A stretch of DNA of 63,856 nucleotides, counting the filler, from an uncultured Methanosarcinales archaeon (lineage in GTDB: Archaea > Nanobdellota > Nanobdellia > Woesearchaeales > CAZKBD01), in the NCBI GenBank assembly GCA_964550945.1. It is 4 parts of 4 records of this genome, joined end to end, with 100 filler letters (N's around TTAATTAATTAA, not from the genome) between each part and the next. Parts side by side here need not be neighbours in the genome. Positions count along the whole stretch, not along the records: positions 1 to 17,842 come from CAZKBD010000034.1; 3 more parts are not named here. One strand, given 5' to 3'. The notes below the pieces were generated by a model, which searched no databases, had not been told where the DNA came from, and saw nothing but the letters and a program-made list of their open reading frames with translations. Shown here piece after piece: positions 980-17,842 of the stretch. Positions within the stretch are counted from its first letter, which is position 1. Each line of letters begins with the position of its first letter. The translations under genes and the position numbers were made by a program.

Positions 980-1035
980 TTTATTATCCCCCCTTTAAAT
1001 TAATTTGATTAGTGTATATAGAATTATTTATAAAA

Positions 1036-1341
1036 TTAATCTTTTTTGACAAGGTTGAGCAACAAAAGAGCACCTTTACCTTTCATGCCCTCTTTAACTC
1101 CTTTCTTTGCTGCAGCCTTGCTGAATTTAGCAACTGAAGATTCAAGCATATCTTCAAAACTTTTTACACCAGTAACAATCACTAATGCGTCGTTGAATTT
1201 ATCTGCAGCATCAATATTAAAATAACCGCAGCCTAAAATACCGTGCAAGGCTTTTATCAACAATATTGTGCTGTTCTCGGTTGCTACCTTAACTCCTTCA
1301 AATTCCCTTCCCTCAATACTTATTGTTTCAGTTTCAATCAT
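1036..1341 (-). CDS. YunC/DUF1805 family protein
   Basis: LLIKA.HGILGCGYFNI...D....A..IVTGVKSFEDML pattern typical of DUF1805. Confidence 0.8.
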   Translation of the reverse strand: MIETETISIEGREFEGVKVATENSTILLIKALHGILGCGYFNIDAADKFNDALVIVTGVKSFEDMLESSVAKFSKAAAKKGVKEGMKGKGALLLLNLVKKD

Positions 1342-1577
1342 CTAACATACTCAGCAACCAGCATTGTGCTTGTAAGCTTGATTCCATCAATAGACCTGAT
1401 CTTTTCTGTGATTATCTTATCAAGCTCTTCAAATTTATCAACTTTGATTTTTACAATAATGTCCCACTCGCCATATAATTCGCTTATTTCAACAGCATTT
1501 TTCAATCTCTTTAAATTCTCAAATATCTCTCTTTCTTTTCCGACATCAACTGTCATCATCACATATGCCATTACCAT
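1338..1577 (-). CDS. Stand-alone Lrp/AsnC ligand-binding (RAM) domain protein
   Basis: AYVMMTV...LYGEWDIIVKI...IRSIDGIKLTSTML pattern with no HTH. GGTGA SD at 1583-1587 favours ATG 1577. Confidence 0.85.
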   Translation of the reverse strand: MVMAYVMMTVDVGKEREIFENLKRLKNAVEISELYGEWDIIVKIKVDKFEELDKIITEKIRSIDGIKLTSTMLVAEYVR

Positions 1578-1602
1578 TTGTATCACCCTATAATACTTAT
1601 TG

Positions 1603-1763
1603 TTAGTATGTCAGAAATATACCCTCAATCTATTTGACGATGGACAAAGTCCAATGCAGTTTAGCGTTACGGTATATTTCTGAGCATGCTCAAAAACCAC
1701 CCTATAATCAAGGTGACTTCAAACATGCCACCCATCTCTGATAGGTGGTTTTTGACATATTAA
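1603..1763. repeat. Double-hairpin intergenic element with terminal inverted repeats (MITE/REP-like)
   Basis: atgtcagaaatatacc/ggtatatttctgagcat and atgctcaaaaaccacc/ggtggtttttgacat arms around the central palindrome tgagcatgctca. The ends ttagtatgtca/tgacatattaa are inverted. Confidence 0.7.
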
Positions 1764-1767
1764 AATT

Positions 1768-1785
1768 ATGTTACTATAGTAACAT
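1768..1785. promoter_or_regulatory. Perfect 18-bp palindrome just after the leuB stop (terminator or protein-binding site)
   Basis: atgttactatagtaacat is its own reverse complement. Confidence 0.4.
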
Positions 1786-1786
1786 T

Positions 1787-2914
1787 TTATATAACTCTCT
1801 TCAGGATAGCATCTCCCATTTCACTGGTTTTGTTATTCCCTCCAAGGTCTTTTGTCCTTATCTTGCCTTCTTTTAGGACTTCTTGGATAGCATCAACTAC
1901 TGCTTTGGCTGATTTTTTCTCTCCAAGCTCGTCCAGCATCATTGAGCCAGCCCATATGGTTGCAATAGGGTTAATAACGCCCAATCCTTTGTATTTTGGA
2001 GCTGAGCCATGAATAGGCTCAAACATAGAAATCCCATCTGGATTGATATTGCCTCCTGGCGCTAAACCTAAACCGCCTTGTATCATTGCTCCTAAGTCAG
2101 TTATTATATCACCAAACATATTTGGCGTTACAACAACCTGAAACCATTCTGGGTTTTTGACAAACCACATGGTTATTGCATCGACAAAATTGAATTCATA
2201 GGTTATCTTAGGGTAATCTTTAGCTGTCTTCTCAACAATCTCACGCCAGAAATTATAAACATCACTTAACACATTTGCTTTGTCAACTGCTGTAACCTTA
2301 TCTTTCTTTTTCATCTTCGCGAGCTCGAATGCATATTTTATAACCCGCTCAGAGCCTTTTTTAGACAAAACGCCTATCTGGTAAGCAATCTCAGAGCCTT
2401 CTGATTCAATATCAAGGCCAAATTTAATTTTATACAAGCTTCTTATAACTTCAAGCTCCTGCTTATTTTTTCCTATCTTAACTCTATTGCCTATCCCAAC
2501 ATAGAAATCCTCTGTGTTTTCTCTGACAACATCAAAATTAATATCTTTGGGAGTCTTGTCCTTCAAAGGGCACCAAACACCCTCTAGCAGCTTAATGGGC
2601 CTTAAATTCACATATTGGTCAAAATAAAATCTTGTTTTTAGTAAGATCCCTTTTTCAAGAATCCCTGGCTTGCATCTAGGGTCTCCTAATGCTCCAAGAT
2701 AAATTGCTTTGCAGGTTTTTTTGATTTCCTTTAAGGTTTCTTCTGTAATCAATTCACCAGTTTTCAGATAGTTGTCTGCGCCATTGTCATACTTAACCCA
2801 ATCAATCTCAAAATTATTAAGCTCAGAGGCCTTATCAATCACTTTAACACCTTCTGCGATTACCTCTGGGCCAATGCCATCTCCTGGAATTAAAGCTATT
2901 CTGTATTTTTTCAT
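1787..2914 (-). CDS. leuB: 3-isopropylmalate dehydrogenase (isocitrate/isopropylmalate dehydrogenase family)
   Basis: [25 protein letters not shown] and EPIHGSAP motifs; located in the leu/ilv cluster. Confidence 0.85.
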
Positions 2915-4020
2915 CTTCTTTTCCCCTTTATTACATATTTTTTTGTGTCCATTCCTTTTTCTTCCTGGATAACAACACCTTTGCTTTTGTCAACAACCCT
3001 TATCTTATAATCTTTTCCCCTTGTTGCATCCTCTTTGCTTTCTGAGAAAAAAGCCTCTTCTGGAGCTGATCTCTCCAGCTTAACGCCGTCCTTCTGGTAA
3101 GACCTTACATCTTCTATCTCAAGGCCTTCTGTTTTTTTAACTGAAAGCTCGATAGCATAATCATGGCAGAGCTCTATCATCCTTGCCGGGTTTCTTCTTG
3201 ATTTAAGCCATATCTTTTTTAATAATTCTTCATCAAAAGGATGTATCCCTTTTCCACCAGACTTGGCAATACGCTTAGCGACCATATCAATAGCGCCTTT
3301 TAGCGAGATTCCTTCTAAATTTATGTTTAACTCATCTGGAACTTTTATGCTCCTGCCATCCAGCCAATATTTCAAGGAATCAAGGCTGCTGGTAAGGTCT
3401 TTGCCTCCTGCAACTATTATCTGGGTGTTCATCGCCAATAGCTTGTCCAAAGGAAGAAACCTTTCTTTTGTGAATTTCTGCATATTATCTATCAGCAGGA
3501 CATATTTTTTATTTCCCAACTCTTTCTTTAGCTTAACCTCAAAATTATCAGCGTCAATATCATTTAGTTCCTTTTCTGAAAAAGCCCCAAATCCAGATGA
3601 AGGCTTAAATAGCTCCTTGACAAACCTTATGTTTATCTTCACTTCTGGCCAATCTATATACCTAATCACAATCCTTGATTTGAACTTTTGAAGCTGCTCT
3701 TCAAGCCATTTTAAGAGTATTGTTTTGCCTGAGCCGTTCTCTCCGATTATAGTGCCAAACTTCTTATTGGAAATGATAAAAAGGTTCAGTTTTTCTTTCT
3801 CAAGCTCAAAATCAGCAATATACTTGCTAACGGGCGCAATTATCTTGTTCTTGTAAGGATTTTCTTTATACCCTAAAGCATTTTCCCAGTCCAATACAAA
3901 TTCTTTATCATCCGGCTTTTTATTTTTCAATGATGGTTTTTTAAGAACTATTGGTATGGTAATCACTTTTATTTTCTCTTCTTCGTTCCTGTCCATAATA
4001 AATTTAATTCCCATAACCAC
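2911..4020 (-). CDS. AAA+ P-loop ATPase, ExeA/GspA-like
   Basis: Walker A GENGSGKT, Walker B VLLID, HPF...S..NP.R..I.LC lid motif; overlaps the leuB start (ATGA). Confidence 0.7.
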
Positions 4021-4062
4021 CGATAAAATAGAGTAATATTTAAATATTTATGCAATATTCTG

Positions 4063-4503
4063 TTGGGTATGGACATAACAATACGGTTGAGCCCAAGGAA
4101 AGTGGAAAGGATAATCTTTATTTTGGTTGTCATAGCTTTAGTTGTCTCTAATGTATACTTCTATAACAAACAGGGTTCTAAAGAAACTGAAACAACTGAA
4201 TCCATAGAAGAAACCACCCAAGTTACAGAAACCCAAGAAGCAGCAGGAGCAGAACCAGAGCAACAAGAACAAACGCAACCATCACAAGGCCAGCAACAGA
4301 CCCCTCAAAATCAACAGGTCCAGCAAAACCAAACAAATCAAAATAACACTCAACAAACAGGGGCTGCAGGAGCTTGCGCTGCTGCCTGGAAATGTAAAAC
4401 CCCTTATTACAAAGGGCATCAGAAAACAGATTGCAGCTGGGAAGATTTAGAAGCGTGTGTCAATGGCTGTATAAATGGGCAGTGTAATGTGACAACTAGT
4501 TAA
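4063..4503 (+). CDS. Membrane-anchored protein with Gln/Thr-rich stalk and C-terminal Cys-rich domain
   Basis: N-terminal TM segment, Q/T/E low-complexity linker, six Cys in the C-terminal part. Confidence 0.65.
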   Translation: MGMDITIRLSPRKVERIIFILVVIALVVSNVYFYNKQGSKETETTESIEETTQVTETQEAAGAEPEQQEQTQPSQGQQQTPQNQQVQQNQTNQNNTQQTGAAGACAAAWKCKTPYYKGHQKTDCSWEDLEACVNGCINGQCNVTTS

Positions 4504-4506
4504 TTT

Positions 4507-4833
4507 TTACAGCTTTAATAAAATAGGTATTATTGATCCTTGACCAGTTTCTTTGATAATCTCTTTTATCTTATCATAACGATCCATATTAAGGTAATAT
4601 TTCCATCCGTGCTCTTTTTTCTTTTTGCAAATAATCATCTGCTTGACTAGGGCTTCTATAACATCCATTATTTTATCTTTAGTAATGTTTAATCTTGAGA
4701 ATTCTCTATTGTATAAACCTTTAACTAAATTATCAAAATAAAGTGAGCCTTTGCCAAAATAACCTCCTTCGTAGAGTGTTTTGCATATGATTCTACTTGC
4801 AATAATGTATTCGCTTTTTTTTACTTTAACCAT
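4507..4833 (-). CDS. Hypothetical protein, probable winged-helix fold
   Basis: Helix followed by LVKQMIICKKKKEHGWKYYLN wing-like segment; own TATA-like motif upstream. Confidence 0.5.
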   Translation of the reverse strand: MVKVKKSEYIIASRIICKTLYEGGYFGKGSLYFDNLVKGLYNREFSRLNITKDKIMDVIEALVKQMIICKKKKEHGWKYYLNMDRYDKIKEIIKETGQGSIIPILLKL

Positions 4834-5026
4834 TTAATCTAAATCCCTTTTACAGGCCCGTATAACAACTGACTTTATAAACTTTATGGTTTTTCAAAGG
4901 TTTATTTTAAGCCTTACAAGGCCATTTTATAATACTTACAAGGTTAAAAATAGAAACCTTTATATAGAAAAGAATTCTAACCCTAGAACAGTATAATGGT
5001 ATATACAGTATTAATGGTATGCAAAA

Positions 5027-5401
5027 ATGAAATCAATATTTTTAAAAAAACAAGGGGCAAGCCCAAAGAACAAGGTGTTGGATTTTTTGATTGTGCACTC
5101 TGAACTAGACTACTCTCTAAAAGAAATATCAAGATACTCAGGAGCAGGATATTCAACAGTAAAACTCTTAATTAAAAAACTATTGAAAGATGGATGGGTA
5201 AAAACAACAAGAAAGATATCTAAAATCAAATTATACAAACTAAATGTGAATAACCCAGAAGTCAAGAAATTTATAGACTTCTTTTGGGAAGTTATAGAAC
5301 AAGAGATTGAAGGAAAACCAAAAGATAAAGCAAGCAATTGCGATCATGTTAGCGGTTCATCCTCAGTTGGAGCAGTAGCTGCCTCTGCCAAATCTATCTA
5401 A
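5027..5401 (+). CDS. Winged helix-turn-helix transcriptional regulator
   Basis: KVLDFL...[35 protein letters not shown]...LYKLN pattern. Confidence 0.75.
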
Positions 5402-5883
5402 CCATTTTTAGCGATGTAATCCAACAATCCGCCTGCATTAATTATCTCAACTGCAAAATCAGGAATAGGCGTAAATTTGTATTCTTCTTTCTTGCTTATA
5501 TTCTTAATGACTCCTTTTTTTATGTCTATCTCTATTTCATCTCCAGTTTTTATCTTTGTATAGGCATCTTTGCATTCAATCGCCAGCATCCCATTATTTA
5601 TGCAATTCCTGAAGAATATCCTTGCAAAGCTGTTTGCAATAACTGCCTTAATGCCAGCTCCTCTTAATGCCCAGACAGCATGCTCTCTGCTTGAACCGCA
5701 GCCAAAATCATCTGATGCAACTATAAAATCTCCTTTTTTAACCTTCTTGACAAACTCTTTGTCAATATCTTCCATTGCATGCTTTGCCAACTCTTGCTCA
5801 TTGTCTGTATTAAGGTATCTAGCAGGAATTATCTCATCGGTATTTATGTGCTCTCTTTTGTAAACATGCGCATATCCTTTCAT
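5398..5883 (-). CDS. leuD: 3-isopropylmalate dehydratase small subunit
   Basis: [22 protein letters not shown] and SFARIFFRN motifs. Confidence 0.95.
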
Positions 5884-7155
5884 ATTTCCAAAGTACTAAA
5901 CGCTGGTATATAAACTTTTATGCAACCTTCTTTGGCGGCACTATACAAACATTATCCTTACACGCCAACCTTCCAAATAGATATATCCATAAAGGACTAA
6001 ACAGCAGAGTGATTGAGATAACCGCTATTGCAATCTGATAACCGCTGGAAGTGATAAGGCCTGCTTGTAAACCCAATGCCCCTAGTATAAAACTGAACTC
6101 CCCTATTTGAGACAGTAGTGCACCACCATAGAAGCTGCGCCTCCATGGATCACCTAACATTCTGAATATCATGGAGTTAATCAATGTGTTGACTACAAAA
6201 ACGGCCGCAACTACCACAACAATCATGCTGAGATTATTAATCACATAATCCAAATTGAGCAGCATTCCTATTGAGACAAAGAACAACGCTACAAATACTA
6301 CTCTAAATGACTTAAGGCTTTGATGGACCCAAGTGGTTTCACGTGCTAATCCTACTGTGATGCCTGCTATGAAAGCGCCCAAAGCAGGAGACAAATGGAA
6401 AAGCTGAGTAATCAAAGCAAATCCAAAACATATTGTAAGCGCAGCAAAAACCTGTAGCTCATGGTGCTCTTTTATCTTGCTGCTAAATGGAAGCTTCCAT
6501 TTCCTGCTTCTCATCAGTAATATAATGAAACCTATAACCAATATACCCATAACAATCTGGAGCCCCAAATTTACCAGATTTACTTTTTCTCTCCCTAACA
6601 ATGAAACTATAATCAACATAGGGATTACAGCAAGATCCTGGACCAGGAGCATACCTAAAACATCTCCTCCAACTTTAGTCTTCATTTCATTGCGTTGTTC
6701 AAGTATGTTTACTACAAGAGCCGTGCTGCTTAAGCTTATAACAAATCCAATCAATATTCTTGCGCCAATAGTCCATCCGAATAATGAGCCTAGTCCACTA
6801 ACAACCAACACACTAATAATTATCTGGAATAGCGTACCTATTATAGCAACTCGCCAATTTGAGAACAAGCAAGGAAGGCAAATCTCCATGCCAACAAAGA
6901 ACAACAATATGACAACTCCCAAATCACCCACTGTTTGTATGATCTGGCTATCTGAAACAAGCTTTAAACCATATGGCCCGATCAAGATGCCTGTTATTAT
7001 GTAAGCAACTATAAACGGTTGCTTAAAAAGGTTGAACAAGACGCTTAAGATAAGCAAACTTAATACCACAGCAACCAAAATACCCAAATTCATCTCAATC
7101 ATGTACCTTAGCCTCTTTTAAAATCTCTTTTGTAAACATGCGCATATCCTTTCAT
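5852..7155. repeat. 32-bp direct repeat (5852-5883 and 7124-7155) duplicating the leuD 5' end around the antiporter gene
   Basis: Identical tctcttttgtaaacatgcgcatatcctttcat at both positions. Confidence 0.9.
5918..7102 (-). CDS. Cation:proton antiporter, CPA2/KefB-like transmembrane domain
   Basis: Multi-TM protein with GILIGPYGL, LLFFVGME, SSTALV, LLVQDLAV, LGAFIAG and SQIGEFSF motifs. Confidence 0.9.
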   Translation of the reverse strand: MIEMNLGILVAVVLSLLILSVLFNLFKQPFIVAYIITGILIGPYGLKLVSDSQIIQTVGDLGVVILLFFVGMEICLPCLFSNWRVAIIGTLFQIIISVLVVSGLGSLFGWTIGARILIGFVISLSSTALVVNILEQRNEMKTKVGGDVLGMLLVQDLAVIPMLIIVSLLGREKVNLVNLGLQIVMGILVIGFIILLMRSRKWKLPFSSKIKEHHELQVFAALTICFGFALITQLFHLSPALGAFIAGITVGLARETTWVHQSLKSFRVVFVALFFVSIGMLLNLDYVINNLSMIVVVVAAVFVVNTLINSMIFRMLGDPWRRSFYGGALLSQIGEFSFILGALGLQAGLITSSGYQIAIAVISITLLFSPLWIYLFGRLACKDNVCIVPPKKVA

Positions 7156-7158
7156 CAT
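7108..7158 (-). pseudogene. Remnant leuD 5' stub ([16 protein letters not shown])
   Basis: GGTGA SD followed by the first 10 codons of leuD, then divergence and a stop 5 nt before the antiporter start. Confidence 0.7.
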
Positions 7159-7167
7159 TTCACCGTT

Positions 7168-7989
7168 TTATACAAACTTCCTAAGGCTAGTTGAGTGCTT
7201 CTTTAGCTCGCCTATTATCTCCTTCAGACTTATGTAATCAGGAGCAATACAGTCTTTGCAGATTTTTTCTGTTGAGTTCAGTATGATGCTCATACTATTA
7301 GCTGTGGATTTTCTTTTCCATTCAATGCCTTTCTTTTTTAGAGATGATGCGAGCTCTTCTAACTTTGCTATCGAACTATGCAAATTATCAAGTATGATGT
7401 CAGCCTTCATATCAGAAACCCCTCTTACATTTTTTTGGGCTTCTGGCAGTATTTTTTCACTATCTGCTAAATAACTTGAAAGCAAGTGCAAGTTTGATTC
7501 TATACTCTGCAATACCTCTTCTTTTTCACTTTCTTTTAAGATAACAATTTTAGTTATAATCCTATCAATTTCTGCTCTGAAGTTGTATAGCCCGACTATT
7601 ATCCTGTTGTACCTTTCCTGAAAAGATACATCATATAGTTCTTTTAATATCTCATCCTGTTCCTTATAAATCAGCTTTGAAACAAGCACCCCTAAGATTA
7701 CGAGGCTGACACAAACCTCTATTATTGATAACCCTCTTGATATGCCTTTTGGCCTGATATCCCCATAACCTAATGATGTTGAGGTTACAAAGCTGAAATA
7801 CAGCGAATCCAAATAACCGTTTACATCATTACTGACTTTTTGCCCTTCAGTATATATGCCATCATTTTCAGTTAATGACAACAAAAAAAATGATGTGCCG
7901 AATACAATTATGATTATAAGATAACCTATCAGTATCTTGCTTAAATTGAACTTTTTTATGATATATTCAATTCCGGTTTGTTTTTTCAT
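7168..7989 (-). CDS. Two-TM potassium channel family protein with helical C-terminal domain
   Basis: DSLYFSFVTSTSLGYGDIRP selectivity filter. Confidence 0.9.
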   Translation of the reverse strand: MKKQTGIEYIIKKFNLSKILIGYLIIIIVFGTSFFLLSLTENDGIYTEGQKVSNDVNGYLDSLYFSFVTSTSLGYGDIRPKGISRGLSIIEVCVSLVILGVLVSKLIYKEQDEILKELYDVSFQERYNRIIVGLYNFRAEIDRIITKIVILKESEKEEVLQSIESNLHLLSSYLADSEKILPEAQKNVRGVSDMKADIILDNLHSSIAKLEELASSLKKKGIEWKRKSTANSMSIILNSTEKICKDCIAPDYISLKEIIGELKKHSTSLRKFV

Positions 7990-9248
7990 TAAAGATATCT
8001 CCTTGGATCAGCTATCTTTCCTTCAATTGCCGAAGCAGCAACTGTTGCAGGGCTTGCCAAATAAACAAAAGATTTAGGGCTGCCCATCCTTCCAACAAAA
8101 TTCCTGTTTGTAGAGCTGATGCAAACTTCTCCTTCTGCCAATATACCCATATGGCCTCCAAGGCAAGCTCCACATGTTGGAGTTGATACAGCTGCTCCAA
8201 ATTCAGTGAATATATCCAGCAATCCTTCTTTGTTTGCCTGCTTCCAGATATCAGTTGTAGCTGGAACTACTATCATCCTTGTATCTTTAGCAATCTTCTT
8301 TCCTTTAACAATTGAAGCAGCAATCCTTAAATCCTCTATCCTGCCATTTGTGCAGCTTCCTAACCAAGCCTGGTCAATTTTGATTTCTTTAATCTTTGAG
8401 ATTAGTTTTCCATTGCTTGGCAAATGAGGGAAAGCAACTATTGGCTCTAAATCGCTAACATCATATTTTATGACTTTCTCATAATTAGCATCATCATCAC
8501 TCTTAAAAATTTCAAACTTATGTTTGCTTCTTTTTTTAACATATTCAATGGTTTTTTCGTCTGGTTCAATAATCCCAGATTTTGCTCCTGCTTCGATTGC
8601 CATGTTTGTTATTGTCATCCTTGCCTCTACTGAAAGGCTTGTTATTGCGCTTCCTGTAAATTCCATCGCTTTGTATAAGGCTCCATCTACTCCAATATCT
8701 GAGATAATCTTAAGTACAATATCTTTTGAATAAACTCCTTTAGGCAGTTTTCCATCTACAATGAACTTTATAGATTCTGGAACCTTGAACCAAAGCTTTC
8801 CAGTTGCAAGCGCAGCAGCTAGATCAGTGCTTCCAACACCTGTTGAAAAAGCGCCTAATGCTCCATAAGTGCAAGTATGCGAATCTGCACCGATAATTAG
8901 CTGCCCTGGAACAACATGGCCTTGCTCAGGCAATATCGCATGACAAACACCATGCCTTCCAACTTCATAGTAATTTTTGATGTTCTCTTTTTTAACCCAA
9001 TCCCTTAGCCTTTTGGCTAACTCAGCCGATTGTATATCCTTATTAGGAACAAAATGGTCTGGAGTTACAACTATCTTCTCAGGATCAAACACTTTTAACC
9101 TTCTTTCAGCCATCATCTTTATTGCAGGAGGCGTTGTCACATCATGGCATAGGATTATATCTATATCTGCATTAATCAACTCTCCTGGTTTCACTTCTTT
9201 CTTGCCGCAATGCTTGGCAAGGATTTTTTCAGTTATGTTCATTCCCAT
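7989..9248 (-). CDS. leuC: 3-isopropylmalate dehydratase large subunit
   Basis: [27 protein letters not shown] and [10 protein letters not shown] motifs. Confidence 0.95.
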
Positions 9249-9249
9249 T

Positions 9250-9738
9250 TCATCCTCTTGAAACTGCAGTTACACCTGTCCTGGATATCTCTTTAACACC
9301 AAACTGCTTCATTAACTCAATAAACGAATCAATCTTATCAGGATCCCCTATCAGTTCAGCAGTAATCGAACTATTGGTTATATCCACAATCTTTGTTTTA
9401 TATATTTTTGTATACCTTAATATGTCTTCCTTTGATTTCTTGTTGGAAACTGCCACCTTAATCAGGCAAAGCTCCCTAATAACAGAGCTTTCTTCCGGCA
9501 TTTCGATAACTTTTATAGTGTCAACCAGCTTATTAACTTGTTTCTCTACTTGCTCTAAAGTTTCATCATCTCCAATAACGCTAATGACCATCTTGCTTAT
9601 TCCTGGCTTTGTTGTCTTTCCGACTGTGATAGTATCTATATTGAACCCTCTTCTTGCGAACATTCCAGCAATCCTTGTCAAAACACCTGGTTGGTCTTCA
9701 ACAAGCATTGCAATAACGTGCTTTTTTTCTTTTGACAT
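9250..9738 (-). CDS. ilvN: Acetolactate synthase small (regulatory) subunit
   Basis: [23 protein letters not shown] motif. GGTGA SD favours ATG 9738. Confidence 0.93.
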
Positions 9739-9748
9739 TTGCATCACC

Positions 9749-11455
9749 CTAAAAATATTTACCTGGCCCAGCCATACAGCCTCCAAAGGCATCTTTTAAA
9801 TTGCCCCCAGGAGATAGCATGGGCAGTATGTTTGATTCTTCCTCAACAGCAACATCAATAAGTGTTGTGCAGTCATTCTTCATCGCTTGCTTTATAGCTG
9901 GCATTAATTCTGATTTTTTCTCAACCCTTATTCCTTTTAATCCGTAGGCTTCAGCAACCTTAACAAAGTTTGGAGTCTTGCCTAAATAAACCTCTGAGTA
10001 TCTTTTGTCTGAAAACAACTCAAGCCATTGCCTGACCATTCCTAAATAGGAATTATTCATAATTAAGGCAATAACTTTGATATTATTCTCCTTTACAGTC
10101 CCTAGTTCCTGTATTGTCATCTGGAAACTTCCATCGCCATCTATCAAAAAAACATTAACATCTGGCTTAGCTATTTTTGCGCCTATTGCAGCAGGGAAAC
10201 CAAAACCCATTGTTCCTGCTCCACCAGAGCTGATAAATGTTCTTGGCTTGCTTCTTTTAATAAAATGCCCTGCAAACATCTGATGCTGGCCAACTCCAGT
10301 AACGACTATGTCCTCTGGCTTCAATATCTTGTTCAGTTCAAGCATAACTGTCTTTGGGTGCATTCTTTTGCCTTCCTTTATCTCAACACAACTATCACAA
10401 ATCTGTTTGCAGCGCTTCATCTCCTTTGTCCAGCTTGTCTTCTCTTTTATTGCTAATTTCTTTATTGCATCTATCAACTCCTGGATAACGTCTTTTGCGT
10501 TTCCAACTATAGGGATATCTACACCAACATTCTTCCCTATTTCAGCTGGATCAATATCAGCGTGGATAACTTTTGCATTTTCAGCGTATGTTTTGAGATT
10601 TCCAGTTATCCTGTCTGAAAATCTGCAGCCTATTGCAATCAATAGATCAGTATGCAAAGTAGCGTAATTAGCTATCTTTCTTCCGTGCATTCCAACTGTG
10701 CCTAAGCATAAAGGATGCATCTCATCAAATGCTCCTTTTGCCATAAATGTTGTTGTAACAGGGATTTTTGTCAGATTAACCAGTTCTGTTAATTCTTTAG
10801 ATGCATTTGAAAGTATTACTCCATGGCCTATCAAAAACAAAGGCCTTTCTGCATTAACGATAGCTTCTGCAGCCTTTTTGATTTGAAATTGATTTGGCTT
10901 TATTGTAGGCTGGAATCCTTCTATTTTAACTTCAGTAGGAAATGCTTCTGTAACCTCATTAGCCTGAACATCCTTTGGCAGATCTATGTAGATTGGTCCA
11001 GGCCTTCCTTCTGAAGCAAGCTTGTATGCTTTCATGAGCGTTGAAGCAATCTTATTCGGATCCCTAATCTGATAGTTATGCTTTGTAATTGGTATAGTGA
11101 TCCCCATCATATCAGTTTCCTGAAATGCATCATTGCCAATCAAACTGGTGACAACCTGGCCGCCAAGTGCTATAATAGGGACAGAGTCCATATATGCGTC
11201 AGCTATTCCAGTAACTAGATTGCAAGCTCCTGGTCCTGATGTTGCAATGCATACTCCAACTTTTCCTGATGCCCTGGCATAACCCTCTGCAGCATGCGCA
11301 GCTCCTTGTTCATGCCTAACTAATATGTTTTTTATCTTTCCTTTATAATCTAGGTAAGCGTCAAATAGAGGTATAACTGATCCACCCGGAAAACCAAAGG
11401 TAATATCAGTACCTTGTTTGATCAATGTTTCAATAATTGCATGCGCTCCGTTCAT
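9749..11455 (-). CDS. ilvB: Acetolactate synthase large subunit, biosynthetic type
   Basis: RHEQGAAHAAEGYAR, TSGPG, RFSDR, GQHQM and GDGSFQM TPP-binding motifs. Confidence 0.95.
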   Translation of the reverse strand: MNGAHAIIETLIKQGTDITFGFPGGSVIPLFDAYLDYKGKIKNILVRHEQGAAHAAEGYARASGKVGVCIATSGPGACNLVTGIADAYMDSVPIIALGGQVVTSLIGNDAFQETDMMGITIPITKHNYQIRDPNKIASTLMKAYKLASEGRPGPIYIDLPKDVQANEVTEAFPTEVKIEGFQPTIKPNQFQIKKAAEAIVNAERPLFLIGHGVILSNASKELTELVNLTKIPVTTTFMAKGAFDEMHPLCLGTVGMHGRKIANYATLHTDLLIAIGCRFSDRITGNLKTYAENAKVIHADIDPAEIGKNVGVDIPIVGNAKDVIQELIDAIKKLAIKEKTSWTKEMKRCKQICDSCVEIKEGKRMHPKTVMLELNKILKPEDIVVTGVGQHQMFAGHFIKRSKPRTFISSGGAGTMGFGFPAAIGAKIAKPDVNVFLIDGDGSFQMTIQELGTVKENNIKVIALIMNNSYLGMVRQWLELFSDKRYSEVYLGKTPNFVKVAEAYGLKGIRVEKKSELMPAIKQAMKNDCTTLIDVAVEEESNILPMLSPGGNLKDAFGGCMAGPGKYF

Positions 11456-11458
11456 TTT

Positions 11459-13006
11459 TTAGTCACCATTTCTTTTTTTGAATGTTAATGCCTTGTTCAA
11501 CCCTTTTACTAAAGCGATTGCACTAGCCATTATAACATCCTCATTTATACCTTCTGCACTAAAAATGTTTCCTTTTTTGTCACATACTTTGATGGTTACA
11601 TGGGCCAAAGCATCTGTACCTCCTGTAATTGCCTCGAGGTTGTATTCTCTCAATGTTACCGATGGGCCTATTATGTTCTGTACAGCCTGGCTAACAGCAT
11701 CAACTGGGCCAACACCATGGCCTTTTCCTATCTTTCTTTTTCCTTCTACTGTCAATGTAACTGTTGCCTCTGGCTTAATCTTATTTCCTGTTGTAATTTT
11801 TACTTCTTCCAATATTATTATCTGCTCTTCTTTTGACAAAGAGCCTATAACATCATTGGCTATCGCTATAATGTCTTCTTTCTGCACTTCTTTCTGTTTA
11901 TCAGCCAGCTCTTTAACCTTTTTGATTATTCCATCTACCTGTTCCTTGTTTAGCTCATAACCAAGCTCTTTTAATGTAGCCTCAACCGCATGTTTTCCAG
12001 AATGCTTGCCTATGACTAGATTATCTCCAATCCAGCCAACCTCTTCTGGGCTTATAATCTCATAGGTAAGCTTATCTGAGATTACACCATGCTGATGGAT
12101 GCCTGCTTCATGTGCAAATGCGTTCTGGCCCACTATTGCTTTGTTTCTTTGCACTGTAAGGCCTGTTAAGTTTGAGACCAGCTTGCTCGTCCGGTGTATC
12201 TCTTTTGTGTTTATCTCTGTGTAAACTCCATTGAAAAAATCATTTCTTGTCTTTATATTCATGACTACTTCTTCCAAGCTGCAGTTGCCTGCCCTTTCTC
12301 CAATGCCATTTATTGTGCATTCTACCTGAGTTGCTCCGTATTTTACAGCCTCTAATGAGTTTGCAACCGCTAATCCTAAATCATTATGGCAATGTACGCT
12401 TATAACCACGTTATTCTTCTCTATGATCTTCCCTAATCTTTGAAAAACAGTTTTTATCCTTTTGCCAAACTCTTCTGGCTCCGCATACCCTACAGTATCC
12501 GGGATATTGATTGTAGTTGCACCTGCCTCAATCACAGCTTTTATTATATCACACATATAATCTACATCTGTTCGTGCAGAATCTTCTGGGCTAAACTCTA
12601 CGTCTTTGCACAATGATCTTGCATGCTTGACTGCTTCAATTGCCATCTGCATTACTTCTTCCTTTGTCTTCCTTAACTTTTTTTCTCTATGGATTTGTGA
12701 AGTAGCAATAAATGTATGGATTCTTGGCTTTTCAGCATATTTTACAGCTTCCCATGCCTTGTCAATATCTTCCTTCATGGTTCTAGCTAGGCCGCAGATT
12801 ATCGGGCCTTTTACTTTCTGGGCTATCAATCTGACTGCTTCAAAGTCTCCATCGCTAGATACAGGAAAGCCTGCTTCAATTACATCTACATTCAGCTTAG
12901 CAAGCTGTTTAGCTATGATTAATTTTTCCTGGATAGTCAATGAAGCTCCAGGGCTTTGCTCACCATCTCGCAAAGTAGTGTCAAATATCATGATCTTTTT
13001 AGTCAT
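11459..13006 (-). CDS. leuA: 2-isopropylmalate synthase
   Basis: DTTLRDGEQSPG, HCHNDLGLA and GIGERAGN motifs plus C-terminal regulatory domain. Start placed at 13006 (purine-rich SD, ATGA overlap with the upstream microprotein). Confidence 0.92.
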   Translation of the reverse strand: MTKKIMIFDTTLRDGEQSPGASLTIQEKLIIAKQLAKLNVDVIEAGFPVSSDGDFEAVRLIAQKVKGPIICGLARTMKEDIDKAWEAVKYAEKPRIHTFIATSQIHREKKLRKTKEEVMQMAIEAVKHARSLCKDVEFSPEDSARTDVDYMCDIIKAVIEAGATTINIPDTVGYAEPEEFGKRIKTVFQRLGKIIEKNNVVISVHCHNDLGLAVANSLEAVKYGATQVECTINGIGERAGNCSLEEVVMNIKTRNDFFNGVYTEINTKEIHRTSKLVSNLTGLTVQRNKAIVGQNAFAHEAGIHQHGVISDKLTYEIISPEEVGWIGDNLVIGKHSGKHAVEATLKELGYELNKEQVDGIIKKVKELADKQKEVQKEDIIAIANDVIGSLSKEEQIIILEEVKITTGNKIKPEATVTLTVEGKRKIGKGHGVGPVDAVSQAVQNIIGPSVTLREYNLEAITGGTDALAHVTIKVCDKKGNIFSAEGINEDVIMASAIALVKGLNKALTFKKRNGD

Positions 13007-13164
13007 TCTTCCTCTTCCTCCCTTTTGTTTGATCTCCATCTCATACAGCTATAGCTATCTAAATCCAGATTGTCCATTAACAAAACATCTGGGCAGTTGG
13101 TTGTGCCAAGATATGCACAAATTCTGCAATTCCCTTTGTTTGTGATTTGCTCTTCAGTTATCAT
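13003..13164 (-). CDS. 53-aa Cys4 microprotein translationally coupled to leuA
   Basis: MITEEQITNKGNCRICAYLGTTNCPDVLLMDNLDLDSYSCMRWRSNKREEEEE*; its TGA overlaps the leuA ATG; GGAGG at 13183-13187 (long spacing). Confidence 0.5.
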   Translation of the reverse strand: MITEEQITNKGNCRICAYLGTTNCPDVLLMDNLDLDSYSCMRWRSNKREEEEE

Positions 13165-13192
13165 TTTAATTAGTTTTAGAAACCTCCAATGA

Positions 13193-13219
13193 ACCTAGCT
13201 CCTGAAAAAAGAACTAGGT
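13193..13219 (-). promoter_or_regulatory. 11-bp RNA hairpin enclosing a U-tract, 2 nt after the leader-peptide stop (candidate attenuator)
   Basis: Minus-strand RNA ACCUAGUUCUU-UUUUC-AGGAGCUAGGU; two of the pairs are G-U and form only on this strand. Confidence 0.6.
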
Positions 13220-13221
13220 AA

Positions 13222-13293
13222 TCATAACACCAGTAACAACAGAGAACTAACTAGCAAAATCTTGCTTTGCTTAAAACAATTTATTTCTGGCAT
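13222..13293 (-). CDS. Putative leu/ilv operon leader peptide (23 aa)
   Basis: MPEINCFKQSKILLVSSLLLLVL*; 10 of the last 12 codons are Ile/Leu/Val; a TATA box lies about 25-32 nt upstream. Confidence 0.65.
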   Translation of the reverse strand: MPEINCFKQSKILLVSSLLLLVL

Positions 13294-13313
13294 AATACTC
13301 TAGAAGTTAAGAC

Positions 13314-13325
13314 TATATATTTAAA
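13314..13325 (-). promoter_or_regulatory. TATA box of the leu/ilv operon
   Basis: TTTAAATATATA on the minus strand, spaced to start transcription at or near the leader ATG. Confidence 0.6.
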
Positions 13326-13432
13326 TATTGCGGTTTTTTTTGCTATAAAACGGTTTAGAAAGCAGAGTTATAATGCACACCAAAATATTTATATAACAGT
13401 TATGCGGTTATTGAAATTAAAAGAGGTGGATC

Positions 13433-13870
13433 ATGGTTATATTGAGAGAGTCTGACAAGCATTTTATCCTGTCTTTGTTTGCAGCGACTGGAATCATTAT
13501 GTTCTGGAGAGGGCTATGGGAAATCATGGCAGATGTGCCTATTCTTGAAGATCCATTAGTTGATCTTGTCGCAGGGCTAACATTGCTTGCATTTTCAGGC
13601 ATATTATTCAAAGAGTTTGATCCCACTGGCGGAATAGAAAACTCTTCAATAAACATGATCCATACGGTTAATCACCACCCTAAACGGCATGAATTTACAA
13701 TTAAGTATTACGATAAAGCAAAAAAGCAGGAAATAGAGATATCTGCAAAACACATAAAATCAATTGAAAAAAATAATCTCCTGGTGCACAGCAAAGGAAA
13801 AGAGCAGTTTATCCCAATCCACAGGATAAGGTCTATCCACAGGAAAGGGGTAGTTGTCTGGAGAGCTTAA
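13433..13870 (+). CDS. Two-TM membrane protein fused to a DUF504/MJ1316-like domain
   Basis: Two N-terminal hydrophobic helices; C-terminal FIPIHRIRSIHRKGVVVWR resembles the IPxHRI...W signature. Confidence 0.6.
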   Translation: MVILRESDKHFILSLFAATGIIMFWRGLWEIMADVPILEDPLVDLVAGLTLLAFSGILFKEFDPTGGIENSSINMIHTVNHHPKRHEFTIKYYDKAKKQEIEISAKHIKSIEKNNLLVHSKGKEQFIPIHRIRSIHRKGVVVWRA

Positions 13871-13927
13871 GATCGGTTTATTATTTCTTTAATAACACAA
13901 TTTAAAAATAAATAAAAAAAAGAAGAG

Positions 13928-15814
13928 TTAGGCTGCTTTTGCCTTTTCTTCAAGTGAATACTTTGTGTCATATTCACCCCAGATCTGCACTTTCATTCCT
14001 AACTCTTTTGCCATCTGTGCCTTAGCAAACATCAGCTTGTTTGCCATCTCTGCGCTGCTTGCATATAATATCGTTTCGTGGTTAGATGGATGCAATAGCA
14101 TCTGGTCTCTGTTTACACCATACCTCACCAAGTGCTTGATTGGCCACTGAGGTGTTGTCTTATCTAATCTGTCTTGTGTTTCTTCTTCTGGAAGCTCAAC
14201 TACTCCTCCTCTCATTAAATTCATGCACATATTGCCATCTGCATCTTGATAAACTCTGCTAATAACAACTTCTCCAGATTTGCCTTCTCCTGCTAATGTT
14301 GATCCTCCTAATGGGAAATACATTGGTGGTTGTCTCATGCCTTTTGCTCCCGAATACCCTCCTTTAAGATGATTTGCTGGTGCAGATCCTGATAGTAAAT
14401 CAACCCACACTTCTTCATTATCTAGCTGGATTTCCTTTCCTTGATAAGTTGCTTTACCGCTATACTTTCTTGACCACCTAACATCTTCCTGATTAGCGGT
14501 TGCATCCTCTCCAAATGCCTTCCAGATTCGTTTTGATAATATTAAATCAACACCGCATCCTTGATCAACTTCATTAAAGCAAGGTATTGCTTCTCCTTTC
14601 CTGATTACTCTGCCTTCTTCATCAAGCACGTCTGGCCTTTCAGCATTATTTAACAATCCTTCAACCAGGTCAGATGCTGCGCAGCAATCTTTCAACCCTT
14701 GCTGGTATTGTATTCCGATTACATCCAGGTCAAACTTATCTGCTATTCTTACAGCAGCAATATACATCTTGCCTTGCTCTATAAGCTGCCTTTTTGTAAG
14801 CTTGGTTTTTTCTGCCTCTAATCTCTCAGTTCTTAGCGTCATATCCACGTCTACATAATCAAACTGCATTCCCTTGTCAATACACCACTGTATCACTCCC
14901 CACGCCTCATTATCGGAGATTGAATTTTTATATCCTAAAAGGGATGCTTTAATCCCATCTGGATCTGCAATAAGTCCCATCTTAGCTACTAAGTCAGACT
15001 GGCTGAGGAACTCATGCCCAATACCCATTGGGCTTAATTTTTCAGGAGAGAAGAAGGCATTATCCATTCCCATGCAATAAAAGTCAAGGCCGCCCATAAT
15101 TGCCCTTTCATGCTTGAGCTTTCTTGCCATCCTGCCGCCAACTTCCATTGAAAATCCATAATCAGATACTAAGCTTGAAACCATTCCATCATCATAATAC
15201 TTAATATGGCTTGCATCTAACTTAATCTTTCCTGCAGTCAGCCAACTTTCCATCCTGCCTCTAAACTCCCTGCTGTCAAAATTCTCGCTCCAGGTTGTTG
15301 AGAAATCTTCTCCAAGCTTTAGCCCTCTTTTGACTAGGGAAGCATTGTCATTTGACATGCCAACTAATCCAGGCCATGTTCCTGAATAATTAGCAAGAGT
15401 AAGAAGCTGAGCACCATTTTCCCTTACTTGTTCAGCTAAAGCCCCTACAACATGATGGCTGTACTGCCAGACTGATTCAGCAAGTATAACCTTAGCATTT
15501 TTTGGGAGTTTTCTAAGAACATCATTTCCCATTGCCTGGCTGTTGATAAATCCATGCCCTAACTCTGGATCAAAGCCATGCAATCTCTCTACTCTGTATT
15601 TCTTTCCAGGAGCATATTCAATGGATTGTATTACAGCTGTCAATTCAGCTTCCATCTTTGCTTGTTCTGGCCAGCATGTCTTGTTTGCGCTATCCCTTAA
15701 ATCCCCATTAGCAAGAGTATAGATAACTCCTTCTTCAGCCTCTCCTGGCTGTTCAAAAATCGCATCTACCATTATTTGATCTAAACTTTTACCAACTGCT
15801 GCTTCCATCTTCAC
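13928..15814 (-). CDS. L-fucose/arabinose isomerase family protein
   Basis: ANGDLR.SAN..CWP.Q, WQYSHH, ANYSGTWPGLVG, IGIQYQQGLKD and FNEVD motifs; follows the ribulokinase. Confidence 0.75.
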   Translation of the reverse strand: MKMEAAVGKSLDQIMVDAIFEQPGEAEEGVIYTLANGDLRDSANKTCWPEQAKMEAELTAVIQSIEYAPGKKYRVERLHGFDPELGHGFINSQAMGNDVLRKLPKNAKVILAESVWQYSHHVVGALAEQVRENGAQLLTLANYSGTWPGLVGMSNDNASLVKRGLKLGEDFSTTWSENFDSREFRGRMESWLTAGKIKLDASHIKYYDDGMVSSLVSDYGFSMEVGGRMARKLKHERAIMGGLDFYCMGMDNAFFSPEKLSPMGIGHEFLSQSDLVAKMGLIADPDGIKASLLGYKNSISDNEAWGVIQWCIDKGMQFDYVDVDMTLRTERLEAEKTKLTKRQLIEQGKMYIAAVRIADKFDLDVIGIQYQQGLKDCCAASDLVEGLLNNAERPDVLDEEGRVIRKGEAIPCFNEVDQGCGVDLILSKRIWKAFGEDATANQEDVRWSRKYSGKATYQGKEIQLDNEEVWVDLLSGSAPANHLKGGYSGAKGMRQPPMYFPLGGSTLAGEGKSGEVVISRVYQDADGNMCMNLMRGGVVELPEEETQDRLDKTTPQWPIKHLVRYGVNRDQMLLHPSNHETILYASSAEMANKLMFAKAQMAKELGMKVQIWGEYDTKYSLEEKAKAA

Positions 15815-15878
15815 TCATCCTCCGAGTTTATTTTGTTTTATTATTTGTTTTAAGTTTATTTTAAATTGAAAATATTAT

Positions 15879-17588
15879 CTATACAGATTCTTTCAGTGCT
15901 CTTAACTGGTGCATTGCGTCATTGTAGTTTGGGTCACCTTTCCTTCCAAATTGGTCATGCAGGCTGCGATAAACATCTTTTAATCCGCTCCATGCCCTAT
16001 GAGTAGCAGTATCTGCTTCAGCAGGTCTGTAAGACACATCTTTTAATCCGCCCATCGCAATCTGTGCATCTTGTATTGACTTATAACGTCCTGCAGCGAC
16101 AGCTGCCAGCATAGCGGCTCCAACAGCAACTGTTTCATCAGCCTCAGACACATAAACTGGTTTTCCTGTTGTATTTGCAATCATATCCAACAATAATTCA
16201 TTCTTTGATCCACTAGCACATGCTGTTATACCTTCTATTATAACTCCATTTTGTTCCATTTGATGTGTAATCACTTCCATTCCCATTGCAAGGCTGGAAA
16301 GCCAAGAGTGGTACATTTGAGGAGCAGTTGTATCAGTTGTTACACCTAGCATAAGGCCTGACAGTTTAGCATCATTTAAAATAGACCTATTTCCTGTTAG
16401 CCAATCCAAAGCAACGAGGCCTGTTTGCCCAATTTTATACTGATGAACTAGTTCTGTTAAATATTGCTGGACATCTTCTCCAGCAGCTGCTGTATAATTA
16501 GTGCCCACACACTCTTTCACAAACCAGTCAAGGACAGAACCTCCAGATGCTTGTCCTGCTTCAAAGCCAAAATATCCAGGAAGAATCCCATTATCGATAA
16601 TGCCAAATAAACCTGGAACTTCATGAAATTTATCAACTGCCATATGGCACCATGAAGTGCCTAGATTACTTACAAGCATTCCTTCTTTAACGCCGCCGCC
16701 AATTGCTCCAACATGTGCATCAATTCCTGGAATAGATACTGCAATGCCTTCATTCAATCCAAGCTCCTCAGCATATTGTTTTGAAAGCCCTCCTGCTCTA
16801 GCACCCATTGGTTGGATGTTGGTGCTTAGCTTATCAGTTACTAGACTGTCTAATTGAACCGCTAGTTTTAATTTTCTTCCAACTTCTCCTAAAAATTCTT
16901 GGCTTGGATAGCTACCTTGAGTAAACATGCCTTTGTAACCAGCAAAACAAGCGCTTCTAACCTCAGTCGATCCTCCAATTAATTGCTGTGTAATCCAGTC
17001 ACCAGCCTCAATAAATCTAGCAGCTTCTCTGTAAACTTCTGGGGCTAGCCTTGCAGTTTCAGCAATTTTGCATAATAGGAATTGAACATTAATTTCACCA
17101 CCATAATACTTTAGCCAATTAACCCCTATTTCATGAGCAACATCATCAATAGCTGCTCTCTCAGTTTCAGCTGCATTGTGGCACCATTTTTTTGCAAATC
17201 TATATGGATTATTTCCATCTATCCTTGATAATGGAACTCCGGCAGCATCAGTTGGCATTACAGTACAGGCAGTAAAATCAACTGCAATTCCCTTAACATA
17301 TTCTTTAGTTATTCCTTTTCCACCTGCTATGCCCATAACCCCTTTGACAGCTTCTTTAAGAACTGCTGGGTAATCATCTGGGTCTTGAAAAACGCTATTA
17401 ATAGGAAAACTACTTCCCCATCTTTTTAGTGATGGGTGTTGGTCTGGAGCCTTAATAAGGCCTTCAATTCCGTGTTCATATGGAACTCTTACCTGAGCAA
17501 CTATTTCACCTTCATCAGAAACAAGAACTGCTCTTCCACTATTTGTACCAAAATCTAATCCAATAAAATAGTCAACCATCTTCACCAA
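15879..17588 (-). CDS. araB: Ribulokinase (FGGY carbohydrate kinase)
   Basis: IGLDFGTNSGRAVLV, DFTACTVMP, IDAHVG, GTSWCHM, EAGQ and ALDWLTGNRS motifs. Confidence 0.85.
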   Translation of the reverse strand: MVKMVDYFIGLDFGTNSGRAVLVSDEGEIVAQVRVPYEHGIEGLIKAPDQHPSLKRWGSSFPINSVFQDPDDYPAVLKEAVKGVMGIAGGKGITKEYVKGIAVDFTACTVMPTDAAGVPLSRIDGNNPYRFAKKWCHNAAETERAAIDDVAHEIGVNWLKYYGGEINVQFLLCKIAETARLAPEVYREAARFIEAGDWITQQLIGGSTEVRSACFAGYKGMFTQGSYPSQEFLGEVGRKLKLAVQLDSLVTDKLSTNIQPMGARAGGLSKQYAEELGLNEGIAVSIPGIDAHVGAIGGGVKEGMLVSNLGTSWCHMAVDKFHEVPGLFGIIDNGILPGYFGFEAGQASGGSVLDWFVKECVGTNYTAAAGEDVQQYLTELVHQYKIGQTGLVALDWLTGNRSILNDAKLSGLMLGVTTDTTAPQMYHSWLSSLAMGMEVITHQMEQNGVIIEGITACASGSKNELLLDMIANTTGKPVYVSEADETVAVGAAMLAAVAAGRYKSIQDAQIAMGGLKDVSYRPAEADTATHRAWSGLKDVYRSLHDQFGRKGDPNYNDAMHQLRALKESV

Positions 17589-17796
17589 ACCTCCACAACT
17601 CTATTTTTCACTCTAGAATATTCTATAGAAGAATTTACTCTTTTGTTTAATAGTGGATTTATCGTTTTAATCCCCCGAACAATTATCCAAGCAGAGAAAG
17701 CAGCCCATTTATATACTTTTTGTAAATGTTACGTCGAGAAAACGTCCCAAAATGGTGACGACGATTCTACAAATATATACAAATTATCCAAAAAAT

Positions 17797-17842
17797 AACA
17801 ATAATGGCTTCGGACGGCTTCGCCTGCTCGCCACTCCGTGAC
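17797..17842. repeat. Truncated copy of the structured repeat at 36571-36685, at the contig end
   Basis: Shares aacaataatggc, gacgg and cctgctcg.cactccg with the 36.6-kb element. Confidence 0.65.

What the first reader, a model, noticed from the sequence alone, without database searches (positions are those of the whole stretch)
13183..13325. Candidate ribosome-mediated attenuator for BCAA biosynthesis in an archaeon: Leu/Ile/Val leader peptide plus U-tract-hiding hairpin
Seen: a TATA box, then an essentially leaderless 23-codon ORF (13293-13222) MPEINCFKQSKILLVSSLLLLVL. Ten of its last 12 codons are Ile/Leu/Val, and its 7 Leu use four different codons. It lies directly upstream of leuA-ilvB-ilvN-leuC. 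Two nt after its stop is an 11-bp hairpin containing UUCUUUUUU. A segment inside the control codons (UAGUUCUCUG, 13240-13249) can pair alternatively with the hairpin 3' arm (CAGGAGCUA, 13196-13204). Known: bacterial leuL/ilvL leaders have this composition; to my knowledge this mechanism is not established in archaea, where termination depends on oligo-U tracts and aCPSF1/FttA. Inference: a ribosome reaching the stop would occlude the 5' arm and expose the U-tract, causing termination. Stalling at Leu/Val codons would let the hairpin hide the U-tract and allow readthrough. This is the inverse of bacterial terminator logic.
Basis: partly seen in the sequence, partly recalled or inferred. Interest (0 to 1): 0.92.

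Follow-up and report, generated by a model that had tools for sequence, protein, structure and literature searches.

The report
Amino-acid-sensing leader peptides in Woesearchaeota
A tiny gene ending in leucine and valine codons, followed at once by an RNA hairpin, sits in front of the leucine/valine synthesis genes of this small-genome archaeon; the same design, with the amino acid matched to the pathway, recurs about a hundred times in its relatives, so ribosomes very probably gauge amino-acid supply here, a control known from bacteria but wired differently.

Summary
Real and conserved. The 23-codon ORF (13293-13222, minus strand) starts 32 nt behind a TATA box; an 11-bp hairpin (13219-13193) follows its stop. 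In the same order (Woesearchaeota-type), 99 of 104 assessable leuA/cimA gene starts carry such a leader (7 picked by hand). Composition follows the pathway: Leu+Val where ilvB follows leuA (31 of 31), Leu alone otherwise, Ile before cimA, Val before 9 of 15 other ilvB-like genes, Phe/Tyr before 7 of 8 shikimate-operon heads. A post-stop hairpin is found in 88 of 96 and covaries (8 of 11 pairs). No bacterial terminator follows. Ribosome sensing is very likely (about 0.9). The output is inferred: probably aCPSF1/FttA termination gated by ribosome position on the hairpin (about 0.5). No expression data. I found no archaeal case in nine paper searches; Rfam holds an unrelated-looking leuA-Halobacteria motif. 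This scan noted similar leaders earlier in Asgard and ammonia-oxidising archaea.

The parts
13318..13325 (-). Archaeal TATA box (with an A-rich BRE-like stretch just upstream)
   Evidence: Sequence; TTTWWA begins 27-36 nt before the ATG in 85 of 98 leaders
13222..13293 (-). Leader ORF, 23 codons, nearly leaderless (start site inferred about 3 nt before the ATG)
   Evidence: orthologous leaders median 22 codons, range 15-41; start site is inference from promoter spacing
13225..13260 (-). Control codons: last 12 codons, 7 Leu, 2 Val, 1 Ile, running up to the stop
   Evidence: clade average of last 10 codons 61% Leu, 29% Val
13193..13219 (-). Post-stop hairpin, 11 bp, 5-nt loop
   Evidence: covariation at 8 of 11 pairs in 19 close relatives, 0 of 500 shuffles as high
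13205..13213 (-). UUCUUUUUU tract in the top of the 5' arm and loop; candidate aCPSF1/FttA binding site
   Evidence: Sequence; UUCU within 45 nt of the stop in 61 of 88 loci, 15 expected; function inferred
13187..13191 (-). Unpaired CAUUG just after the stem (family motif CAnnG), function unknown
   Evidence: CAnnG after the stem in 37 of 88, 5.4 expected; CA in 58 of 88, 27 expected; CA invariant in the 19-sequence alignment
13003..13164 (-).
   Evidence: no Pfam match; one weak look-alike at the same place in L051, E 0.16; unnamed Atlas clusters at 0.92
11459..13006 (-). leuA, 2-isopropylmalate synthase
   Evidence: TIGR00973 and NF002086 over cut-off
9749..11455 (-). ilvB, acetolactate synthase large subunit
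   Evidence: TIGR00118 over cut-off
9250..9738 (-). ilvN, acetolactate synthase small subunit
   Evidence: TIGR00119 over cut-off
7989..9248 (-). leuC
   Evidence: TIGR02083 over cut-off
5398..5883 (-). leuD-type small subunit, behind an ion-channel-like and a Na+/H+ antiporter gene; possibly the same transcript
   Evidence: TIGR02087 over cut-off; Pfam for the two genes between; co-transcription not shown

Best explanation
A leader-peptide attenuator adapted to archaeal termination. Shown by comparison: promoter, nearly leaderless mini-gene, pathway-matched control codons up to the stop, and a hairpin in fixed register behind it. Inferred: a ribosome starts at the 5' end as the RNA is made. 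With charged Leu- and Val-tRNA plentiful it reaches the stop, covers the hairpin's 5' arm, and leaves the U-rich loop and the RNA behind it single-stranded and untranslated; aCPSF1/FttA binds, cuts and ends transcription. Short of Leu or Val it stalls earlier, the hairpin folds and keeps FttA from threading the RNA, and polymerase reaches the operon. The hairpin acts as the antiterminator and the ribosome itself is its only competitor. Sensing about 0.9 likely; this exact output about 0.5.
For: Leaders at 99 of 104 assessable leuA/cimA starts. Val present (2-5 of last 10 codons) in 31 of 31 clade-A leaders with ilvB directly behind leuA and absent in the 3 without. Ile 54-56% before cimA, Leu 74% and Val 1% before clade-B leuA. 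Hairpin of -5 kcal/mol or better in 88 of 96, against 27 of 99 shuffles and 12 of 120 ordinary gene ends. Register: in cimA leaders the first G-C pair lies 6-9 nt after the last Ile codon in 42 of 44, and moves away from the stop when the last codon is Ile (8 of 10 versus 10 of 34). Footprint model. aCPSF1 present, over cut-off. FttA needs 36 nt of nascent RNA, U-rich at -30 to -36 and U at -23 (PMC11616081, passages); by hand this fits 13210-13204 and 13197 here. Hairpin end lies over 40 nt from the first aligned leuA/cimA codon in 63 of 88.
Against: No transcript, ribosome or reporter data. A U-rich tract is inside only 42 of 88 hairpins and UUUU inside 27 of 88; several loops are A-rich. 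The 3' arm, where the cut would fall, is G-rich and U-poor across the family. The best-kept Ile codons are at -2 to -4, and a stall at -2 leaves the hairpin in only 48 of 88. The register shift is not seen in leuA leaders (Fisher p 0.43-0.73). You et al. propose that FttA and the ribosome exclude each other on the polymerase, and the hairpin could refold once the ribosome leaves. The CAnnG motif is not explained. Two of 7 aromatic leaders and both Cys leaders lack a firm hairpin. Genomes are kin, so p values overstate.
Confidence: 0.5

Rival explanations
1. Same sensor, opposite role for the hairpin. The hairpin with its CAnnG/UUCU tail is a polymerase pause or the FttA landing signal. A ribosome that finishes is released, uncoupling lets FttA load on the U-rich control codons or the tail, and a stalled ribosome protects the RNA or blocks the signal (tnaC/Rho-like logic).
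For: Control codons are themselves 40-52% U. Conserved unpaired CA/CAnnG and a second UUCU cluster at +31 to +35, outside the stem. Most conserved control codons abut the hairpin. Proposed ribosome/FttA exclusion (PMC11616081).
Against: Stalls at codon -3 or earlier, where most control codons lie, leave the hairpin folded in 79-81 of 88, so stalling would not remove a hairpin signal. No U-run after the stem (3 of 89).
Confidence: 0.25
2. Translational control: ribosome position on the leader decides initiation or re-initiation at the next start codon, as in mycobacterial polycysteine leaders.
For: In many cimA loci the first ATG lies within about 25 nt of the stem; it is the main start in 50 of 89 loci and opens a short ORF ending near the main start in 19. 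Here the 53-codon ORF overlaps leuA by ATGA. Precedent: bioRxiv 10.1101/834739 (abstract).
Against: No conserved pairing of control codons with the 3' arm or the 15 nt behind it. Spacing to the main gene runs from about 30 to about 650 nt. Melting the stem at the stop would switch translation on when the amino acid is plentiful, the wrong sign.
Confidence: 0.12
3. Ribosome-gated mRNA decay after transcription: the same exposure lets a nuclease cut the finished mRNA and remove the downstream part.
For: FttA has endo- and 5'-3' exonuclease activity on U-rich RNA (PMC11616081); anatomy cannot tell co- from post-transcriptional cutting.
Against: No specific support; it would waste a 5-8 kb transcript.
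Confidence: 0.08
4. The peptide acts as a small hydrophobic protein, and the hairpin only stabilises or ends its RNA.
For: All hairpin-linked leaders end in hydrophobic residues.
Against: The residue changes with the pathway, including Val gain and loss with ilvB; the N-terminal half is not conserved; the run is about 10-13 residues and ends at the stop.
Confidence: 0.04

Closest known systems
Classical bacterial leader-peptide attenuators (enterobacterial leuL, Rfam RF00512; ilvL and ivbL recalled; M. tuberculosis ilvB1NC, PMC13236596)
   Same: Short upstream ORF rich in the pathway's amino acids; the ribosome at the stop would mask a structure; same target genes.
   Different: No hairpin-plus-U terminator (3 of 89; none), no competing RNA helix, control codons run to the stop, archaeal promoter. 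No RF00512 match in the genome.
Mycobacterial polycysteine leaderless sORFs (bioRxiv 10.1101/834739; predicted in PMC1262725)
   Same: Leaderless mini-gene, control codons near the stop, no intrinsic terminator, several loci per genome sharing the design.
   Different: There the structure sequesters the downstream ribosome-binding site; no such pairing is conserved here.
Actinobacterial LEU element before leuA (PMC1262725)
   Same: Leu-run uORF before leuA without classical terminator.
   Different: LEU pairs Leu codons with the Shine-Dalgarno box and forms a pseudoknot; here a simple post-stop hairpin. That paper cites a test in which changing such codons did not fit classical attenuation, a caution for this case.
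Rfam RF03001 leuA-Halobacteria (archaeal cis-regulatory RNA)
   Same: Archaeal; named for leuA; classed Cis-reg.
   Different: No match at this locus or over cut-off in the genome. Its proposed mechanism could not be read: the supplement of PMC5737381, where I recall it is described, was not available.
aCPSF1/FttA-dependent termination (PMC11616081, PMC7515710)
   Same: Factor present; U-rich RNA at a fitting distance in this locus.
   Different: In the passages read it ends transcription units; conditional use in a leader is not described.

Membership tests
Classical leader-peptide attenuator | Short upstream ORF enriched in the end-product amino acids | tested here: met
Classical leader-peptide attenuator | Intrinsic terminator (hairpin followed by U-run) before the first gene | tested here: not met
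   UUUU within 12 nt after the stem in 3 of 89; 0 terminator-like sites in 12900-13500
Classical leader-peptide attenuator | Mutually exclusive RNA helices | tested here: not met
   Codon-to-3'-arm duplex: 3 of 89 at p<=0.05, 0 of 88 by permutation, 10 of 88 by species swap against 65 of 88 for the true stem; competing 3' hairpin in 5 of 88
Classical leader-peptide attenuator | Leader is translated and output depends on the control codons | not testable with these tools
   Needs ribosome profiling or reporters
Rfam RF00512 Leu_leader | Score over gathering cut-off | tested here: not met
   No match in the genome at E<=10
Rfam RF03001 leuA-Halobacteria | Score over gathering cut-off | tested here: not met
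   Best 16 bits elsewhere in the genome, cut-off 47.9; not listed for 12800-13600
Mycobacterial leaderless-sORF translational attenuator | Leaderless sORF with a run of control codons | tested here: inconclusive
   Promoter spacing implies a near-leaderless RNA; start site not mapped
Mycobacterial leaderless-sORF translational attenuator | Structure sequesters the downstream ribosome-binding site | tested here: not met
   Stem end within 20 nt of the first aligned codon in 12 of 88, over 40 nt in 63
FttA/aCPSF1-dependent terminator | Factor encoded in the genome | tested here: met
   TIGR03675 904 bits, cut-off 580
FttA/aCPSF1-dependent terminator | U-rich RNA at -30 to -36 and U at -23 | tested here: inconclusive
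   Fits this locus by hand; U-rich tract in 42 of 88 hairpins
FttA/aCPSF1-dependent terminator | Cleavage and factor dependence | not testable with these tools
   Needs 3'-end mapping and depletion

The most novel reading that the evidence does not exclude
DPANN archaea run several amino-acid pathways (Leu, Val, Ile, Phe/Tyr, perhaps Cys) with one portable leader design in which the ribosome's position on a single hairpin gates the CPSF73-type nuclease aCPSF1/FttA: attenuation without competing RNA helices or an intrinsic terminator, carried out by the homologue of the eukaryotic cleavage and Integrator nucleases.
Probability: 0.45. Interest if true: 0.92.

Novelty: new variant of a known kind. 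Interest (0 to 1): 0.8.

Why it matters
I found no report of leader-peptide attenuation in archaea (paper searches; open-access and bioRxiv only). If true, it shows functional transcription-translation coupling in DPANN archaea and a regulatory, conditional use of aCPSF1/FttA. About a hundred natural variants with fixed spacing give ready substrates for the open question of how ribosome and FttA compete, testable in the Thermococcus in vitro system or a Methanococcus depletion strain. It also implies that these Woesearchaeota actively make and regulate amino acids.

Tried and rejected
Alternative pairing of control codons with the 3' arm: rejected. Bacterial terminator: absent. Rfam scan of 12800-13600: two chance-level hits. 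TTNTTT pause motif (recalled from Bacillus NusG): in only 15 of 89 tails. Expression: no RNA holder listed; three runs laid gave no cover of the leader; no evidence either way. Prediction that G048's separate ilvB has its own Val leader: not met (L131). Chorismate mutase as a handle for aromatic leaders: only this genome among 27 loci, 2 of them not located, most not operon heads; replaced by operon heads. cysM orthologues: 0 of 300 other genomes at 1e-50, so Cys leaders are untested for conservation. No cognate leader seen before trp, his, hom, lysC, argF, argJ, lysA or proA in this genome (most of these names recalled from sequence). First tree timed out; FastTree used. PMC7103508 not held. 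The Methanothermobacter trpY leader is recalled only; one search found no paper. Uniform hairpin and register statistics were not computed for the ilvB-head and aromatic leaders; their energies are whole-stretch folds.

Full report
Observation. The ORF, codon counts, TATA box and hairpin are as described. Two corrections: a 53-codon ORF (13164-13003) lies between leader and leuA, and the proposed pairing of control codons with the 3' arm is no better than chance. Downstream genes are leuA, ilvB, ilvN and leuC, each over a curated cut-off, and later a leuD-type gene. Only 1-17842 of the window is this contig. The closest titled leuA records are mostly Woesearchaeota or Nanoarchaeia/Nanoarchaeota, two of six titled otherwise; those kept fall in this gene's clade.

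Conservation. I searched 61 and 401 genomes of the order with LeuA (92 of 401 matched) and fetched upstream DNA for part of the matches. One search gave 129 gene starts; after dropping duplicates, bacteria, one fragment and one unpublished duplicate, 110 remained. Four lie outside the leuA/cimA clades (taken as homocitrate-synthase-like) and have no leader; two are cut off by contig ends. Of the other 104, 99 have a leader: 34 of 35 clade-A leuA, 17 of 17 clade-B leuA, 33 of 36 and 15 of 16 in two cimA-like clades. The rule found 92; 7 were picked by hand from a relaxed list, and six weak picks with 4 or fewer Ile/Leu/Val were kept by eye. For two loci the rule took a distant Val-rich leader; each has a nearer Ile-rich one, and both were dropped. 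Only this genome's cimA was scored against a model; the second clade is called cimA-like from the tree. Eight further non-duplicate archaeal-type leuA loci from metagenomes with 73% identity or more and enough upstream DNA all have the leader. No count rests on unpublished genomes.

The residue follows the pathway. Last ten codons: 61% Leu and 29% Val in clade A, 74% Leu and 1% Val in clade B, 54-56% Ile before cimA. All 31 clade-A leaders with ilvB directly behind leuA have 2-5 Val; the three without have none. Two of those three are sisters and one genome is 56% complete. Of 15 other ilvB-like genes, 9 have Val-rich leaders, 5 follow another ORF and have none, 1 is unclear. Seven of 8 shikimate-operon heads in view among 20 fetched stretches have Phe/Tyr leaders, two nearly identical; 7 heads were out of range and 5 lone chorismate mutase starts had none. 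This genome also has Ile, Phe/Tyr and two Cys leaders. A hydrophobic peptide function does not explain this matching.

RNA anatomy. A hairpin of -5 kcal/mol or better follows the stop in 88 of 96 leaders (89 of 98, against 27 of 99 shuffles and 12 of 120 ordinary gene ends) and starts within 4 nt in 91 of 98. In 19 hand-chosen close relatives 8 of 11 pairs change on both sides, above all 500 shuffles and all slid controls; kinship inflates this. The true stem is species-specific in 65 of 88 swaps, the codon pairing in 10 of 88. No U-run follows the stem (3 of 89). U-rich tracts inside it are enriched but not universal (42 of 88, 18 expected); UUCU occurs in 61 of 88 (15 expected) and CAnnG after the stem in 37 of 88 (5 expected). 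In cimA leaders the stem keeps 6-9 nt from the last Ile codon in 42 of 44 (Fisher p 0.008 for the shift); leuA leaders do not show the shift.

Mechanism. Sensing by the ribosome is about 0.9 likely. With a 12-nt edge from the A site (PMC7261190), the hairpin survives in 1 of 88 loci with the ribosome at the stop, 14 at codon -1, 48 at -2 and 79 at -3; edges of 9 or 15 nt move this by one codon. This is a model, not a measurement. With no intrinsic terminator, aCPSF1/FttA, present here, is the likeliest executor. Its geometry (PMC11616081) fits 13210-13204 with a cut near 13197, worked out by hand. Against: the tract is missing in half the family, the 3' arm is U-poor, the best-kept Ile codons sit at the edge, and ribosome and FttA may exclude each other. 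I give this output 0.5, hairpin as pause or landing signal 0.25, translational control 0.12, decay 0.08, peptide function 0.04.

Known systems and literature. It works like a leader-peptide attenuator but fails two defining features of the classical family and matches neither RF00512 nor RF03001. Nine searches showed no archaeal case; I saw their listings only, apart from these papers. Passages: PMC5737381 (supplement unavailable; it may bear on novelty), PMC13675443, PMC7261190, PMC11616081, PMC1262725, PMC13236596, PMC13158618, PMC7515710. First half: PMC13681488. Abstract and outline: 10.1101/834739. Nothing: PMC7103508. Subscription journals are not covered. The scan's unchecked notes describe similar leaders in Asgard, ammonia-oxidising and hot-spring archaea; a word search for Woesearchaeota leaders and a look-alike search gave none. 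They are leads, not support.

Verdict. A real, order-wide, multi-pathway leader system in DPANN archaea; new variant of a known kind; interest 0.8. The output step awaits experiment.

Noticed in passing
G000:C4:37654-37586 (-): Ile-rich leader with hairpin before citramalate synthase, same layout as the finding.
   Followed up: yes
G000:C136:574-666 (+): Phe/Tyr-ending leader with strong hairpin and CAUUG before chorismate mutase, two transketolase halves and ADH synthase.
   Followed up: partly
G000:C66:9024-9053 (+): Nine-codon Cys-rich ORF heads tRNA-Cys and cysS; U-rich tail, no firm hairpin. A leader peptide in front of its own tRNA gene.
   Followed up: partly
G000:C8:32495-32418 (-): Cys-rich 25-codon ORF before a small TusA-like ORF (name recalled), cysteine synthase, a second cysS and a sulfite-reductase-like gene.
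   Followed up: partly
window 13164-13003 (-); L051 about 1360-1500: Small Cys-containing ORF coupled to leuA; a weak look-alike sits at the same place in one relative.
   Followed up: partly
L219 (two), L076, L088: Apparent tandem leaders: two cognate mini-genes in a row before one operon.
   Followed up: no
L075:2470-3059; L143:1283-1844 (counted on the minus strand): Val-rich leader now heads an unknown 108-119 aa ORF, followed by an Ile leader and cimA-like gene; perhaps a lost ilvB.
   Followed up: no
L208 upstream of leuA: Bacterial leuA with a Leu run in mid-peptide, the classical layout, a contrast to the archaeal leaders.
   Followed up: no
L024/L008: leuA appears frameshifted near codon 80 while its leader is intact.
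   Followed up: no
window 7989-5918 (-): Ion-channel-like and Na+/H+ antiporter genes lie between leuC and leuD.
   Followed up: no
window 13433-13870 (+): Divergent gene with a hydrophobic N-terminus and an MJ1316 domain shares the promoter region.
   Followed up: no
G000 C64 about 4030-4350, C5 about 27330-27480, window about 1620-1770: Related palindromic repeats in several intergenic regions, likely a mobile repeat family.
   Followed up: no
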